Source of the DNA: a virus
Lineage: Duplodnaviria; Caudoviricetes
Strand: one strand, 5' to 3'
Virus record (IMG/VR): IMGVR_UViG_2904399447_000014
Span: 25,007-89,006 of that record
Length of the DNA: 64,000 nucleotides
Translations under genes and position numbers: made by a program
Shown here: positions 33,806-44,850 of the stretch, piece by piece
How positions within the stretch are numbered: position 1 is the stretch's first letter
Layout: every line of letters starts with the position of its first letter
Notes under the pieces: model-generated
Told to the model about the DNA's origin: nothing
The model's input: only the letters and a program-made list of their open reading frames with translations
Databases searched by the model: none

Positions 33806-35386
33806 TTAACGCATTAGAACAGGAACACCAACAATGCGGCGGGATACTCCCGTCACACACACTTCCCAGCGCACTTCCCAGCTATCGAAACTTGTATTGG
33901 TAACTGTCACGATATAAGGCGCCTCACCCTGGCTGACATCGCGTGGCTTGACCAAGGCCTCAGCTGCTACATAGCGATCGAGAAGGCGGGGAATGCCCTT
34001 TTCAAGCCCTTCACGGGTTAAACCATCAGGTTCATGTTTGAGGGCAGCAGCTAAGGAGTAATAATCGCGCGCGATAGAGTTCATCACTGAAATAACATGC
34101 TGATATTGCTTGTAGTTATTTTCGACACACGTAGTTAGGGCATCATCAATAACGATCGCGCCATTTACACTGGTCACTACGTTTAGATGGGCTTTTGCAA
34201 AGACTTCACGGTCAATGTTGGCAGCAGCAGGCAGAGGCTGAATGTTTTGACGATTAACCACGCCGCGTGACACGCCGGCAGGGGAGTAATGCCATCCGCC
34301 GACATCAGGTACCAGGGCTACACCTTTCGCTTTAGCCGTGAAAGCGTCGCCAGATAAACCGAATACAACATTCGATTGGCTCAATGGATCGCGACAGGAG
34401 AATGGGAAGTAATAGGCGGTGACATTTTCATTACCACCCAAGCCAAGCCCGGTTAGTTGCTCCAGCGCCTTATCAGCGGCTAAACGGGGATCAACATCTG
34501 CGAACATATCAACACGAACAGCCTTTGCCAGTTCGGCAAGTTTGCCGATCGCCGTCGCGTCATAAATTCCCAAAGACAGGATAGCGGTGTACTCCACCAG
34601 CGAACCATCTAACACCGCTATTGATGCTGCATAGTCTTTCGACGTTAGTTTCTTAAAATCGCCGTCAGAGCCACCGACAAATGCTTGACCGGTGATACCT
34701 GTAAATGACGCCGGCAGAGCGAGAGTATCGGAGATCAGCACACGCAACCGTGAATCGTTACGTTCGAGGACATCAGGGATATACGCGGACAGCCCCATAT
34801 CATCCAACACGTCTGAATTAAGCGATACGTCGTAATTTTCCAGCGTGGTTTCTGCACCTAACGAGTCAGTTGCCACCAGTTTCAAAGAGAAGAGGCCAGG
34901 CTTGGTTTTGACAGGCTCAAAACTCAACTTTCGGTTGGTAGACTTATCGCCATCTTCGACAAAGAAAGTGAGAGCGGCCTTAGCAGGCAAAGTGATATCG
35001 GCACCAAATGCGCTTGTGCTGGTGGTTGCCTTAACCGTGGTAACCGCCGGCGTTCCGGCCGTCTCTACCGTCAGGTTGATTGCGGGGATCAACATACCAG
35101 GCAAAGGAATGCGTACTACATAACCGTCACCGCCAGCCAAAGCCTGATTCACATGACGTAGAGGCTCAAAAAACTGGCCTTCTTGTGGTCTTGGAGCTTC
35201 ACCCAGTACAGATTTGACGTTGTTCTGTGTGATTTTCAGGACTTTATTTGGCTTGCCTTTCCGAGCAATTACCAGGCCCGCAAATACTGAGGCACCGCCA
35301 GAAGTAGATCCGGTTGTTGCTGATGCATCGATTGGCGCAACTGCCGTGCCGGCAGCCGTACCAAGAGCAAAAGGGATTTTATTCAT
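33806..35386 (-). CDS. 22: Tail sheath protein
   Basis: 526 aa; VPDVGGWHYSPAGVSRG, IDDALT, KHEPDGLT, RRIVGVP. Confidence 0.9.
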   Translation of the reverse strand: MNKIPFALGTAAGTAVAPIDASATTGSTSGGASVFAGLVIARKGKPNKVLKITQNNVKSVLGEAPRPQEGQFFEPLRHVNQALAGGDGYVVRIPLPGMLIPAINLTVETAGTPAVTTVKATTSTSAFGADITLPAKAALTFFVEDGDKSTNRKLSFEPVKTKPGLFSLKLVATDSLGAETTLENYDVSLNSDVLDDMGLSAYIPDVLERNDSRLRVLISDTLALPASFTGITGQAFVGGSDGDFKKLTSKDYAASIAVLDGSLVEYTAILSLGIYDATAIGKLAELAKAVRVDMFADVDPRLAADKALEQLTGLGLGGNENVTAYYFPFSCRDPLSQSNVVFGLSGDAFTAKAKGVALVPDVGGWHYSPAGVSRGVVNRQNIQPLPAAANIDREVFAKAHLNVVTSVNGAIVIDDALTTCVENNYKQYQHVISVMNSIARDYYSLAAALKHEPDGLTREGLEKGIPRLLDRYVAAEALVKPRDVSQGEAPYIVTVTNTSFDSWEVRWEVCVTGVSRRIVGVPVLMR

Positions 35387-35430
35387 TTTTGTTCCTAACA
35401 GCGCCCCATGAGGGGCGCCTTATCAAAGGA

Positions 35431-37413
35431 TTAGCCGGCGGCCTTCACAGTCACCTTCGCAACTGCGGTTTTTGCACCGTCTTCACTTGTCATTGTGATG
35501 TTGACGACACCTACAGCTTTCGCTTCGCCGTCGCCGTTCTGATCAACAACTGCCAACGATTCATCGCTAGAAGTCAGCGTAAACGTCTTGTTGGTTGAGT
35601 TTTCAGGCAGAACAGCAGGAGTCAGCTTGAATTTTTCACCGACGGAGACGCTCAAAGTTTTCGGCGTCAACGTAACGCTCTCAACACCTACGACTGGTGC
35701 TTCTGTATCTTCGCCGCCGGCTTCAGGCTTTTTTTCGATGAACTTCCCAGTGCCTGGGTCGATAGCACCAACTTTCTCGTTAACCAACGTCAGGCGAGAG
35801 AAATAGTCTTCGCCATTACGTGGGTGGATCTCATTGATTGCAGAACCCCACAGAGTCTGACGGTTCACCAGGGCTGTAGTAGTTGGATGGACAAACGGGA
35901 TAGCAGGAACGGCATCACCAGCGACCATGCCCGCTTCACCCAGGTTTTCACCACGGGAGTAGAAGAGAATGTCGCTAGGAGAGTACGGGTAACCCTCTTT
36001 GTTAAACTGCTCGCATACAGGGTTAGGCACTTCATAAATGCGGATTGAGCCGAACAAGATACCAATGAAGTGAACGTAAGACGTTTGCACGTAGTTCGGC
36101 GCCAACTGGAACATGCTTTCCGGCAGAGATTTGATGTAGCCCGCAGCATCACCACCAGCAAAACCACCACGGATTCCGTATTTTTTAGTACGGTCACGCA
36201 TCTCGGTGGAGATACGGTTTACAACACCACGGAACAAGGCGCACCAAGGCTCCCATTGCTGACCTTCCGGTAAGGCAGTGTCGAATTTGTATTCGTGAAC
36301 AGTATGGAACGCGAGCTTACGCAGACGTTTCATATCTTGCTCATGCGAGCACCATTGAGTGAGGCTGGTAAACTGCATTGATGCCAGGTTAAGGCCGAAC
36401 TCACGTTGCAGATCCATCATAGATTGCACAGTATGTTCTGCGGCCAGGATGTATTGCGATGGCTTCATCGTCCATTTACGCATTGCCTGGTTAATAACGG
36501 GGATCAGGTCTGGAGCATTCTCTACGTCCAGCTCTGCCTGCATTGCGATGTGAGTACCTGCTGGTGGTTCGGCATCGAACTTCAGCTTCACAATACCCTT
36601 GGTGTAATCGATGTTGCCAGTGACTTGGAAGCTGTTGCCTTTGGAGTCTTTTTCGTTGTAGTTGATGTTGCTTTCGCCATCATCGTAATGTTTGCCAAGA
36701 CGGCGGTTCACAATGATACGCACGCGAGAACGACGAACAGGCATGTCGCGACCTTCATCATCCTTGATCGAAATGGTGAATTCTTTCGTTTTGCCGTCGA
36801 CATCGTCTTTCAACATGAAAATGCGGCCCATTTGCGAGAATACGCCAGCGCTGAGGTGATCCATTTGTTCACCACGTTCGAACGAACCCATTTTCACACC
36901 GGCGATGTTGTAAACCTCATAGAAGTCTGACTCATCACGTGTTGCAGGCATGAAAGTACACATGTCGCTCGTAGCGGCGCCGAGGGCGGAAGGTAGGATC
37001 ATTGCCATGAAAATAGCCTGGCGCATAACACCTTCTGACGTGCGCATGTCGCTGGATACTGACTCCAACATTGCTGAGCCATCACCGCTGCGCTTAGCGC
37101 TAGGGGCTGATTCCAAGATCAGGTTTTCACAGGCATTTTGGGCGTTTGCCAGCAAATCGGCTGGTGGGTTACATCCGTTAATACGACGGTAATCGGCAAC
37201 GCTAGCAGCCCAAGCGGTGGCGATTTGGCGCACTGCCTTTGGATCGACACCTTCAAACATCGGATCTTGGGCCGCTGTCTGGAAAATGGTTTCTGCTTGT
37301 TGTTCAACACTCATTGCGGCGTTGATAGGTGCATTACTGGTAAACGCCAGCACTCGGCCAGCGCGACAATTTACGTCTCTTTGACGTTCATGAAATGCTT
37401 TGGTATCAGACAC
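35431..37413 (-). CDS. 23: Major capsid protein with in-frame C-terminal Big_2-type Ig-like domain
   Basis: P1 gp23-like body (AEHTVQSMMDLQREFG, NRQTLWGSAINEIHPRNG) then VESVTLTPKTLSVSVGEKFKLTPAVLPENSTNKT..TSSD..AVVD..G...A.GV..IT.TSEDGAKTA.AKVTV. Confidence 0.92.
   Translation of the reverse strand: MSDTKAFHERQRDVNCRAGRVLAFTSNAPINAAMSVEQQAETIFQTAAQDPMFEGVDPKAVRQIATAWAASVADYRRINGCNPPADLLANAQNACENLILESAPSAKRSGDGSAMLESVSSDMRTSEGVMRQAIFMAMILPSALGAATSDMCTFMPATRDESDFYEVYNIAGVKMGSFERGEQMDHLSAGVFSQMGRIFMLKDDVDGKTKEFTISIKDDEGRDMPVRRSRVRIIVNRRLGKHYDDGESNINYNEKDSKGNSFQVTGNIDYTKGIVKLKFDAEPPAGTHIAMQAELDVENAPDLIPVINQAMRKWTMKPSQYILAAEHTVQSMMDLQREFGLNLASMQFTSLTQWCSHEQDMKRLRKLAFHTVHEYKFDTALPEGQQWEPWCALFRGVVNRISTEMRDRTKKYGIRGGFAGGDAAGYIKSLPESMFQLAPNYVQTSYVHFIGILFGSIRIYEVPNPVCEQFNKEGYPYSPSDILFYSRGENLGEAGMVAGDAVPAIPFVHPTTTALVNRQTLWGSAINEIHPRNGEDYFSRLTLVNEKVGAIDPGTGKFIEKKPEAGGEDTEAPVVGVESVTLTPKTLSVSVGEKFKLTPAVLPENSTNKTFTLTSSDESLAVVDQNGDGEAKAVGVVNITMTSEDGAKTAVAKVTVKAAG
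35723..35735 (-). other. Candidate -1 ribosomal frameshift site A_AAA_AAG with -1-frame stop
   Basis: ATC GAA AAA AAG CCT GAA in frame 0; -1 frame reads AAA AAA GCC TGA. Confidence 0.55.
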
Positions 37414-44394: not shown

Positions 44395-44850
44395 TTGAAA
44401 CTTAAAACGTTGCTGTTATCGGCATCGATCGCTCTATTGGCGCCCCAGGCATTTGCACAGGAACCTGCAATGTCATTCAAATGCGATCAGCTGAATATTC
44501 TGGTGTACAAACAGAACGACGCCAAAGGACGCAAAGTGGTGACACTGAACGGCACTAGGCAAGATGATGTAAAGACGTCGCTCTCAACTCGTTCAGGAAA
44601 AAAGGTTAGTACGGTTTCGTTTGTAGAACGCGCCCAAGCTGGTGGCTCTTATGGGCTGTATAATCTGTATATCATTCGGGCTGAAGGCGTGTACTTAACA
44701 AATGATTGGCTGGATGCTGATGATAAGCCTAAGCGGGAAGCCAAGGTGTATCAGTGCGATTACAAAGGTGAGATTGACGCGGCAACGCCAGCACAATTTA
44801 CAGCCTGGGAAGCGCGCAGAAACGCTGAAGCGATGGACGCCCGGAGCTAA
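44395..44850 (+). CDS. Exported protein with Sec signal peptide, 151 aa
   Basis: MKLKTLLLSASIALLAPQAFA signal; AAGGA RBS; two Cys. Confidence 0.75.
   Translation: MKLKTLLLSASIALLAPQAFAQEPAMSFKCDQLNILVYKQNDAKGRKVVTLNGTRQDDVKTSLSTRSGKKVSTVSFVERAQAGGSYGLYNLYIIRAEGVYLTNDWLDADDKPKREAKVYQCDYKGEIDAATPAQFTAWEARRNAEAMDARS

What the first reader, a model, noticed from the sequence alone, without database searches (positions are those of the whole stretch)
35431..35760. Major capsid gene with in-frame Ig domain and a dnaX-type -1 frameshift 'off-switch' at the junction
Seen: gp23 continues in frame into a Big_2-like Ig domain. At the linker the codons are ATC GAA AAA AAG CCT GAA, an in-phase A_AAA_AAG heptamer (35734-35728). 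The -1 frame reads AAA AAA GCC TGA, giving a 563-aa product, about the size I recall for P1 gp23. A GGGAAG SD-like element lies 8 nt upstream. Known: A_AAA_AAG is the E. coli dnaX slippery site, where frameshifting truncates tau to gamma; phage Ig domains are usually added by frameshift (T7 10A/10B style). Inference: the logic here is inverted, so frameshifting makes the plain capsomer and in-frame reading makes the Ig-decorated one, setting Ig density on the capsid. I see no strong 3' hairpin at the usual spacing.
Basis: partly seen in the sequence, partly recalled or inferred. Interest (0 to 1): 0.8.

Follow-up and report, generated by a model that had tools for sequence, protein, structure and literature searches.

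The report
Slip site that drops capsid Ig domain
A Serratia phage-plasmid fuses an antibody-like domain to its coat protein, and the joint carries a ribosome slip site, conserved in relatives, that most likely makes some coat protein without that domain, although this copy has lost the RNA hairpin that would make slipping efficient.

Summary
ORF 35431-37413 (-) is a P1 gp23-type major capsid protein fused in frame to a Big_2 Ig domain. An in-phase A_AAA_AAG sits at 35734-35728. A -1 slip reads GCC then TGA and gives a 563-aa product that ends where P1 and D6 capsid proteins naturally end.

In the window alone this is not beyond chance (P about 0.17 given the amino acids; seven such in-phase heptamers in the window's ORFs). 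The support is comparative:
- 12 of 15 Ig-fused homologues (7 of 8 clusters at 90% identity) carry A_AAA_AAG or G_GGA_AAG at the linker.
- 10 of those 12 have a -1 stop (TGA, TAA or TAG) after one codon.
- Six have a significant hairpin 2-5 nt downstream, with compensatory changes.
- D6-type relatives use the same heptamer with the opposite polarity.
- 87 capsid core genes almost never contain such heptamers.

In the window's own lineage no local hairpin is found and the SD-like GGGAAG is weak and 8 nt away. Synonymous sites around the heptamer are nevertheless unusually conserved (rank 2 of 619).

Verdict: this is an inherited dnaX-like truncating frameshift site, probably of low efficiency here, and a new variant of a known kind. 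The scan reached the same reading earlier on another Serratia genome (e1-5358348).

The parts
35431..37413 (-). Major capsid protein gene with an in-frame C-terminal Ig domain (660 aa, GTG start preceded by AGGA)
   Evidence: It is 100% identical to a gene annotated 'Ig-like domain-containing protein' on Serratia marcescens plasmid NZ_OW849140.1.
35761..37401 (-). P1 gp23-type capsid protein body (aa 5-551), including an N-terminal helical region that is probably removed at E117|S118
   Evidence: phrog_1014 E 1e-162. The profile hits PDB 9ukm, P1 Gp23, E 3e-263. P1 gp23 loses its first 120 residues, leaving the N-terminus SVAAEM (PMC9024508). The window has MLE|SVSSDM with M115, E117 and S118 conserved.
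35728..35734 (-). In-phase slippery heptamer A_AAA_AAG (codons E562, K563, K564), followed by CC
   Evidence: It is the only in-phase XXXYYYZ heptamer in the gene. It is homologous to heptamers in 12 of 15 Ig-fused relatives and in the D6 clade.
35723..35725 (-). TGA stop in the -1 frame, one sense codon (GCC, Ala) after the slip
   Evidence: The same layout, with TGA, TAA or TAG, occurs in 10 of the 12 heptamer-bearing relatives.
35743..35748 (-). SD-like GGGAAG, 8 nt 5' of the heptamer (weak candidate stimulator)
   Evidence: duplex with the anti-SD is -4.3 kcal/mol, and 7-15% of windows within the gene pair as well. It is conserved in the four variants of the window's clade.
35686..35760 (-). 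Linker between the capsid body and the Ig domain (aa 552-576); aa 561-573 are predicted disordered
   Evidence: AlphaFold2 model: pLDDT is below 50 for residues 561-573, between a folded body and a folded beta-sandwich.
35452..35685 (-). Big_2 Ig-like domain (aa 577-654)
   Evidence: Pfam PF02368, E 2.2e-15. The model shows an all-beta domain over 579-657 with pLDDT of about 85-90.
35714..35721 (-). 5' arm (GCCGGCGG) of a candidate long-range stem that starts 6 nt after the heptamer
   Evidence: It pairs with 35638-35645 in all three sequences folded. The fold is not better than shuffles (z = -0.57), so this is only a candidate.
35638..35645 (-). 3' arm (CCGTCGGT) of the candidate long-range stem
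   Evidence: 8 pairs are kept, with one G-C to G-U change. The arm lies in the codons for the conserved VG of the Ig domain.
35400..35418 (-). Conserved GC-rich hairpin between the capsid gene and the tail sheath gene
   Evidence: A GCGCCC(C/G)...(G/C)GGGCGC hairpin is present in P1, JK004, D6, L093 and L090.
33806..35386 (-). Tail sheath gene directly downstream (context)
   Evidence: phrog_1036, E 3e-140.

Best explanation
The gene encodes the major capsid protein of a P1/D6-like phage-plasmid of Serratia marcescens. It carries a Big_2 Ig domain on a disordered C-terminal linker. Standard decoding gives the 660-aa Ig-bearing subunit.

At the first codons of the linker, the tRNA-Lys molecules reading AAA and AAG can re-pair one base back on A_AAA_AAG. 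The ribosome then reads GCC (Ala) and stops at TGA. This releases a 563-aa subunit that ends ...IEKKA, at the position where D6 and P1 capsid proteins naturally end. The logic is that of E. coli dnaX (tau and gamma).

Shown: the sequence anatomy, and the conservation of the slip site plus -1 stop across the Ig-fused clade.

Inferred: that slipping occurs here, and at what rate. This lineage has no local 3' hairpin and only a weak, slightly misplaced SD-like element. I therefore expect a low rate, from a fraction of a percent to a few percent, so virions would be mostly Ig-decorated with a minority of bare subunits. In the Erwinia/Pantoea-type relatives, which have strong hairpins, the bare form may be abundant.
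For: Anatomy and placement
- The heptamer phase, the -1 stop and the product length are as described.
- The heptamer lies at the start of a disordered linker, pLDDT below 50 for aa 561-573.
- The short product ends in the same alignment column as the D6 capsid protein (...NEKK*), plus one Ala.

Conservation in the Ig-fused clade
- The Ig-fused capsid genes form one clade (SH-aLRT 100), and the heptamer is present on both sides of its deepest split.
- 12 of 15 sequences, or 7 of 8 clusters at 90% identity, have A_AAA_AAG or G_GGA_AAG at the linker. It sits in different codon contexts (EKK, AKK, VKK, VGK) and is displaced by about 4 codons in L092.
- The probability of the heptamer plus an immediate -1 stop, given the amino acids and codon usage, is 0.011 (L092), 0.007 (L090), 0.002 (L091) and 0.0003-0.0006 (G type).
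- The codon after the heptamer always ends in T before GAN, AGC or AAC (CCT, TCT, ACT, CTT) although its amino acid varies. This yields TGA, TAG or TAA in the -1 frame.

Stimulators in relatives
- Hairpins start 2-5 nt 3' of the heptamer with z = -2.5 to -4.9 in L092, L093, L096, L007, L094 and L090.
- Their consensus is an 8+3 bp stem-loop with two compensatory pairs.

Opposite polarity in other relatives
- The D6 clade, L064 and two Rosenbergiella prophages have the same kinds of heptamer followed by a 0-frame stop, with conserved -1 extensions.

Avoidance elsewhere in the gene
- 87 distinct capsid core genes (48,642 codons) hold only 3 such in-phase heptamers, about 0.06 per 1000 codons. 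The window's ORFs hold about 0.36 per 1000.

The window's own clade
- All four variants keep the heptamer.
- The 12-codon window over the heptamer has synonymous identity 0.97 against 0.71 overall, rank 2 of 619.
- The 3' neighbour CC is reported as the most shift-prone context for A_AAA_AAG (PMC5009743).
Against: - There is no significant local hairpin in the window or its close relatives: z = -0.25, -1.0 and +0.6.
- The only candidate is a long-range stem that is no better than shuffles.
- GGGAAG pairs weakly, and 8 nt lies just outside the 9-14 nt range (PMC5009743).
- Bare heptamers gave only 2-10 times a 0.055% background in an E. coli reporter (PMC4066793).
- The nearest sister lineage (Serratia fonticola, S. 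silvae and JSRIV002; 82% identity) has GAG AAA ACC or CAA and no heptamer. The short form is therefore dispensable there.
- Two variants in the window's clade (L004, L097) lost the immediate stop; their -1 frame runs 5 sense codons.
- For the window alone P is about 0.17. AAG is in any case the preferred Lys codon before C (PMC5009743).
- No protein data exist.
Confidence: 0.6

Rival explanations
1. The site is a relic. The ancestor of the Ig-fused clade had a complete cassette of heptamer, -1 stop and hairpin. This Serratia lineage lost the hairpin, and the heptamer persists without selection. It gives only error-level slipping with no role in the virion.
For: The window's clade has no local hairpin, whereas the sister subclade has strong ones. 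The closest sister lineage lost the heptamer altogether, and L004 and L097 lost the immediate stop. Bare heptamers perform poorly in reporters (PMC4066793). P(heptamer | amino acids) is 0.17 for EKK.
Against: The heptamer is kept in all four variants of the window's clade despite 38% synonymous divergence. The surrounding 12 codons are the second most conserved synonymous window of 619. Capsid core genes otherwise purge such heptamers. The D6 clade also lacks a significant hairpin yet keeps a conserved -1 extension, so low-efficiency sites are maintained in this family.
Confidence: 0.3
2. Transcriptional slippage is responsible. RNA polymerase stutters on the A7 run, and a fraction of mRNAs carry one more or one fewer A. 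Ordinary translation of those mRNAs then gives a truncated capsid protein.
For: There is a run of seven A. Thermus dnaX uses transcriptional slippage to make gamma (PMC5009743).
Against: Four related sequences in one subclade use G_GGA_AAG, which has only three A in a row, at the same place with the same -1 stop. This fits tRNA re-pairing and not polymerase stuttering. Seven A is shorter than the runs usually needed (general knowledge). Downstream hairpins at 2-5 nt are ribosomal stimulators.
Confidence: 0.05
3. The feature is chance or artefact. The EKK codons are slippery by accident and unrelated to the heptamers of relatives, or the A-run length is an assembly error.
For: Seven in-phase A_AAA_AAG occur in the window's ORFs.
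Against: Independent assemblies all show A7 with an intact frame: the window, L004, L005, L097 and plasmid NZ_OW849140.1. The heptamer occupies the homologous column in distant relatives.
Confidence: 0.03

Closest known systems
E. coli dnaX (tau/gamma) programmed -1 frameshift
   Same: Both use an A_AAA_AAG heptamer. In both, the shifted ribosome reads one codon and stops, so the shifted product lacks C-terminal domains. Relatives of the window add a stem-loop a few nt downstream. In dnaX of some bacteria the polarity is reversed, with the stop in the 0 frame and the long product made by frameshifting (PMC5009743). This is the same pair of layouts as the window's clade and the D6 clade.
   Different: dnaX is a cellular replication gene with about 50% efficiency and both an SD-like element (AGGGAG, 10 nt upstream) and a stem-loop. 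The window has neither in convincing form. Its product is a virion shell subunit, and no homology is implied.
Phage capsid genes that add a C-terminal extension by frameshifting (T3 gene 10, T7 10A/10B, Lactobacillus phage A2, Listeria phages A118, A500 and PSA)
   Same: One capsid gene gives two products that differ by a C-terminal surface module, which is Ig-like in T3 and A2. Both products are built into the shell (PMC5009743).
   Different: In those phages the 0 frame stops and the frameshift adds the module, so the decorated form is the minority. Here the module is in frame and the frameshift removes it. I found no report of that arrangement for a capsid gene in the papers searched.
Escherichia phage D6 capsid gene orf51 with orf50, and D6-like phage-plasmids
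   Same: The capsid protein is homologous (48% identity). The same A_AAA_AAG sits in the same alignment column, and Ig-related sequence follows it.
   Different: In D6 a 0-frame stop (TGA, TAG or TAA) follows the heptamer directly. The -1 frame adds a 35-aa tail that resembles the first strands of a Big_2 domain, and the rest of the domain is a separate small gene (orf49). The D6 record annotates orf50 as a separate ORF, not as a frameshift product.
E. coli copA / CopA(Z)
   Same: A -1 frameshift within a long ORF leads to a nearby stop and yields a short product made of the N-terminal part only (PMC5009743, personal communication cited there; the later publication is known to me from memory).
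   Different: The copA site lies early in the gene and the heptamer is different. The gene is a metal transporter and not a structural protein.
Phage P1 gp23 (PDB 9ukm; T=13 capsid of 775 copies)
   Same: The capsid protein family is the same. The N-terminal region is removed on maturation, and a single protein forms both pentons and hexons with no cement protein (PMC12810830, PMC9024508).
   Different: P1 gp23 ends ...GDSE* with no heptamer, no extension and no Ig domain.

Membership tests
dnaX-type truncating -1 programmed frameshift cassette | X_XXY_YYZ heptamer in phase with the 0 frame, of a type efficient in enterobacteria | tested here: met
   A_AAA_AAG at 35734-35728 is in phase. It is one of the three most efficient motifs in E. 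coli (PMC4066793).
dnaX-type truncating -1 programmed frameshift cassette | Stop codon in the -1 frame immediately or very soon after the shift, with the 0 frame continuing into further domains | tested here: met
   GCC then TGA in the -1 frame; the 0 frame continues for 96 codons through the Big_2 domain.
dnaX-type truncating -1 programmed frameshift cassette | 3' stem-loop or pseudoknot about 5-9 nt downstream | tested here: not met
   For the window, z is -0.25 (45 nt) and +1.2 (60 nt). The only candidate is a non-significant long-range stem. The feature is met in relatives L092, L093, L096, L007, L094 and L090.
dnaX-type truncating -1 programmed frameshift cassette | SD-like element 9-14 nt upstream | tested here: inconclusive
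   GGGAAG is 8 nt upstream, at -4.3 kcal/mol against -7.3 for dnaX. Between 7% and 15% of windows within the gene pair as well. It is conserved within the window's clade but absent from the hairpin-bearing relatives.
dnaX-type truncating -1 programmed frameshift cassette | Phylogenetic conservation of the site beyond what the protein sequence requires | tested here: met
   7 of 8 Ig-fused clusters carry the site. P values are 0.011 down to 0.0003 per lineage. Synonymous conservation ranks 2 of 619 in the window's clade. The heptamer is depleted in 87 capsid core genes.
dnaX-type truncating -1 programmed frameshift cassette | Two protein products observed from one gene | not testable with these tools
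   No proteomic or reporter data are available.
Capsid extension by frameshift (T3/T7 gene 10 type) | The 0 frame terminates near the shift site and the shifted frame encodes the extension | tested here: not met
   The window has the inverse layout. The D6 clade, L064 and the Rosenbergiella prophages do meet this feature.
P1 gp23-type (HK97-fold with insertion domain) major capsid protein | Full-length sequence similarity to P1 gp23 and family profiles, with the gene next to the tail sheath gene | tested here: met
   phrog_1014 E 1e-162. 44% identity to P1 gp23 over aa 1-560. PDB 9ukm E 3e-263 with the family profile. The sheath gene lies downstream.
Big_2 bacterial Ig-like domain (PF02368) | Pfam score above the gathering threshold and an all-beta fold | tested here: met
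   56.8 bits against a cut-off of 22.8, over aa 577-654. The model shows a beta-sandwich with pLDDT of about 85-90.

The most novel reading that the evidence does not exclude
[quoted passage not shown] In the D6, Enterobacter-type and Rosenbergiella elements the slip adds a tail or tag to a minority of subunits. In the Serratia/Erwinia/Pantoea Ig-fused clade the same kind of slip removes an in-frame Ig domain. The number of Ig domains on a T=13 shell would then be set by frameshift efficiency, tuned by gain and loss of the 3' hairpin. A bare fraction may be structurally required, for example for the 55 penton subunits out of 775, about 7%.
Probability: 0.3. Interest if true: 0.75.

Novelty: new variant of a known kind. 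Interest (0 to 1): 0.58.

Why it matters
Frameshifting that adds Ig-like modules to phage coat and tail proteins is textbook. Frameshifting that subtracts an in-frame module from a coat protein has, as far as I could find, not been described. If it is real, this family would be a natural series in which a single site works in both directions and with different strengths. That would make it a compact system for studying how recoding efficiency evolves and how many surface domains a capsid tolerates or needs.

It also matters for annotation. These genes are filed as single 'Ig-like domain-containing proteins', and the D6-type extensions are filed as separate small ORFs. It is relevant to phage display and to engineering of P1-like vectors, where partial decoration of the shell is often wanted.

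For this window the practical message is more modest. The site is inherited and probably weak.

Tried and rejected
- Megablast of the region against phage records found nothing; tblastn was needed.
- The D6 genome paper (PMC5800970) is not held, so I could not check whether its authors discussed a frameshift.
- Literature searches for a truncating capsid frameshift found no such report.
- Rfam gave no match in 35300-36000.
- The metagenome scan with the Ig-domain alignment returned only the already known L004 contig and two unrelated multi-Big_2 proteins.
- The search of representative proteins was swamped by Big_2 repeat proteins and added no new Ig-fused capsid lineage.
A-run heterogeneity in DNA or RNA reads could therefore not be examined, and read laying was not used.
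- Promoter and terminator scans across the gene were uninformative.
- Synonymous-site analysis of the hairpin-bearing subclade failed at the linker, because its amino acids vary too much.
- I considered a simple one-indel conversion between the D6 layout and the window's layout and rejected it. One inserted base would bring the -1 extension into frame, but it would put the old stop in the +1 frame and not the -1 frame, so the -1 stop is not a passive leftover.
- I did not use complex prediction, because no binding claim is made.
Full report
1. WHAT IS THERE

On the - strand, ORF 35431-37413 (GTG start, AGGA 9 nt upstream) encodes 660 aa.
- Residues 5-551 match PHROG 1014, the P1 gp23 family, E 1e-162.
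- They are 44% identical to P1 gp23 and 48% identical to the phage D6 capsid protein.
- A family profile hits the solved P1 Gp23 structure 9ukm, E 3e-263.
- Residues 577-654 are a Pfam Big_2 Ig-like domain, E 2e-15.
- The tail sheath gene follows.
- The same gene, 100% identical, lies on the 84-kb Serratia marcescens plasmid NZ_OW849140.1. The element is a P1/D6-like phage-plasmid.
- An AlphaFold2 model (mean pLDDT 74) shows a folded capsid body, a disordered stretch at 561-573 and a confident beta-sandwich at 579-657.

2. THE OBSERVATION

The codons ATC GAA AAA AAG CCT GAA are in frame, so A_AAA_AAG (35734-35728) is an in-phase slippery heptamer. The -1 frame reads GCC TGA.
- The shifted product is 563 aa and ends ...IEKKA.
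- This is the alignment column where the D6 protein ends (...NEKK*), within two residues of the P1 end.
- GGGAAG lies 8 nt upstream.
- There is no local 3' hairpin.

3. IS IT MORE THAN CHANCE?

Taken alone, it is not.
- Synonymous shuffling gives the heptamer in 17% of trials, and the heptamer plus an immediate -1 stop in 7%.
- The window's ORFs of 150 aa or more hold seven in-phase A_AAA_AAG.
The case rests on comparison with relatives.

4. COMPARATIVE EVIDENCE

I collected DNA for 15 Ig-fused capsid genes, covering 8 clusters at 90% identity, and about 75 other P1/D6-family capsid genes. The Ig-fused genes form one clade (SH-aLRT 100).

The window's subclade:
- The four Serratia marcescens-type variants (window, L005, L004, L097) all have GA[A AAA AAG].
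- The following codons are CCT GAA, TCT GAA or CCG GAA. The -1 tails are A*, V* or AGSRR*.
- The sister group (S. fonticola, S. silvae, JSRIV002; 82% identity) has GAG AAA ACC or CAA CCG GAG. It has no heptamer and no nearby -1 stop.

The other subclade:
| Locus | Shift site and next two codons | -1 frame |
|---|---|---|
| L092 | GT[A AAA AAG] CTT AAC, about four codons further on | TAA |
| L090 | GC[A AAA AAG] ACT GAT | TGA |
| L091, L098 | GT[A AAA AAG] TCT AGC | TAG |
| L093, L096, L007, L094 | GT[G GGA AAG] ACT or CCT GAT | TGA |

The amino acids, the heptamer type, its position and the stop codon all change. The design does not: an efficient lysine heptamer, one sense codon, then a stop.
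- The third-position T that creates the stop is kept while the encoded residue varies among P, S, T and L.
- The chance of the design given the protein sequence is 0.011, 0.007, 0.002 and 0.0003-0.0006 in the different lineages.
- In each Ig-fused gene the junction heptamer is the only in-phase A_AAA_AAG or G_GGA_AAG.
- 87 distinct capsid core genes (48,642 codons) contain just three of them.

5. STIMULATORS

Six relatives have a hairpin that starts 2-5 nt after the heptamer.
- It folds far better than shuffles, z = -2.5 to -4.9.
- Five of them share an 8+3 bp consensus with two compensatory pairs.
- Spacing and form are those of a classical -1 stimulator (PMC5009743).

The window's clade has none (z = -0.25, -1.0, +0.6).
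- The only candidate is an 8-bp long-range stem, 35721-35714 with 35645-35638. It begins 6 nt after the heptamer and is kept in three sequences, but it is not better than shuffles.
- The SD-like GGGAAG is weak and 8 nt away, where 9-14 nt is stimulatory (PMC5009743).
- Bare heptamers gave only 2-10 times a 0.055% background in an E. coli reporter (PMC4066793).

Points in favour of residual function:
- The 3' neighbour CC is reported as the most shift-prone context for A_AAA_AAG (PMC5009743).
- The 12 codons around the heptamer are the second most conserved of 619 synonymous windows within the window's clade, 0.97 against 0.71. With effectively two or three lineages this is suggestive and no more.

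6. THE FAMILY PICTURE

Outside the Ig-fused clade the same site works the other way round.
- In the D6 clade A_AAA_AAG is followed directly by TGA, TAG or TAA. The -1 frame encodes a 35-aa tail that is conserved as protein through several substitutions.
- In L064 the -1 frame also opens into Ig-like sequence.
- In two Rosenbergiella prophages G_GGA_AAG plus TGA plus an 11-bp hairpin opens a 72-aa low-complexity tail.
- P0048 and P0049 carry the D6-type tail in frame, without a heptamer.
- P1 itself has none of this.

The review by Atkins et al. describes this reversal for dnaX: a small change can swap which product needs the frameshift (PMC5009743). The D6 clade also lacks a significant hairpin, which shows that weak sites can still be maintained in this family.

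7. MECHANISM AND ITS RIVALS

Best reading (0.6): an inherited dnaX-like truncating -1 ribosomal frameshift. In this lineage it is probably inefficient, giving mostly Ig-bearing subunits and a minority of bare ones.

Main rival (0.3): the heptamer is now only a relic. The lost hairpin, the heptamer-less sister lineage and the relaxed -1 stop in L004 and L097 favour this view.

Transcriptional slippage (0.05) is disfavoured, because G_GGA_AAG replaces the A-run in four sequences of one subclade. Chance or assembly error (0.03) is disfavoured by independent assemblies and by positional homology.

Why two forms would be useful is not shown. P1 builds 11 pentons and 120 hexons from one protein without cement proteins (T=13, 775 copies; PMC12810830). 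A need for some unencumbered subunits, for instance at pentons, is a speculation worth testing.

8. COMPARISON WITH WHAT IS KNOWN, AND NOVELTY

The site works like dnaX and, more loosely, like copA. It is the mirror image of the T3, A2 and Listeria-phage capsid extensions. It fails one dnaX-cassette criterion here (the 3' structure), and the SD criterion is inconclusive. It should therefore be called a dnaX-like bare slip site descended from a full cassette, and not a full member.

I found no published description of a capsid frameshift that removes an in-frame Ig domain. The D6 paper could not be read.

The scan itself reached the same reading on another Serratia genome (e1-5358348). It has also repeatedly described the D6-type 'split Ig' frameshift (for example e1-381182 and e1-442635). 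I re-derived both from the sequences here.

This is a new variant of a known kind, of moderate to good interest for the family and modest interest for this copy.

Noticed in passing
L001 3160-3600 (phage D6) and about 25 D6-like loci, e.g. L028, L041, L051: The D6-type capsid genes end A_AAA_AAG followed by a stop. The -1 frame adds 35 aa resembling the first strands of a Big_2 domain. After a hairpin, a separate 92-aa gene (orf49) starts at about the second strand and ends with another first-strand-like segment. This looks like a split Ig domain. The scan has described it several times before.
   Followed up: partly
L012 4201-4430 and L056 (Rosenbergiella prophages): The capsid gene ends G_GGA_AAG TGA, with an 11-bp hairpin 4 nt downstream (z about -3.6 to -4.0). 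The -1 frame encodes a 72-aa Ala/Gln/Asp/Lys-rich tail. This is a third kind of frameshift-added capsid extension in the same family.
   Followed up: partly
L064 4219-4300 (Enterobacter hormaechei-type element): A_AAA_AAG lies two codons before the capsid stop (...EEEKKSE*). The -1 frame opens into a 24-aa Ig-like start (VGVTGVSVSS...).
   Followed up: no
L058, L061 (P0048, P0049): The same short Ig-strand tail as in D6 is fused in frame to the capsid protein, with no heptamer. All three states (frameshifted, in frame, absent) therefore exist in the family.
   Followed up: no
window 35400-35418 (-); also P1, JK004, D6, L093, L090: A GC-rich hairpin (GCGCCCC-loop-GGGGCGC) without a T-run is conserved between the capsid gene and the next gene across the whole family. 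It may be an mRNA stabiliser or partial terminator that sets the capsid-to-sheath ratio.
   Followed up: partly
window 44598-44604 (+) and 12118-12112 (-): Two further in-phase A_AAA_AAG heptamers have a -1 stop after one and two codons. They lie in a 159-aa and a 999-aa stop-to-stop ORF. I did not examine whether they are conserved.
   Followed up: no
window 37060-37065 (-), residues E117|S118: The probable prohead-protease cleavage site MLE|SVSSDM aligns with the experimentally determined mature N-terminus of P1 gp23 (SVAAEM). The first 117 residues are predicted helical, like a scaffolding delta domain.
   Followed up: partly
L053 (D6-like viral contig), -1 extension: One D6-like contig has a different end to the -1 tail (...KKQSRSKAKTRP*). 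This is apparently caused by a length change in a second A-run inside the extension.
   Followed up: no
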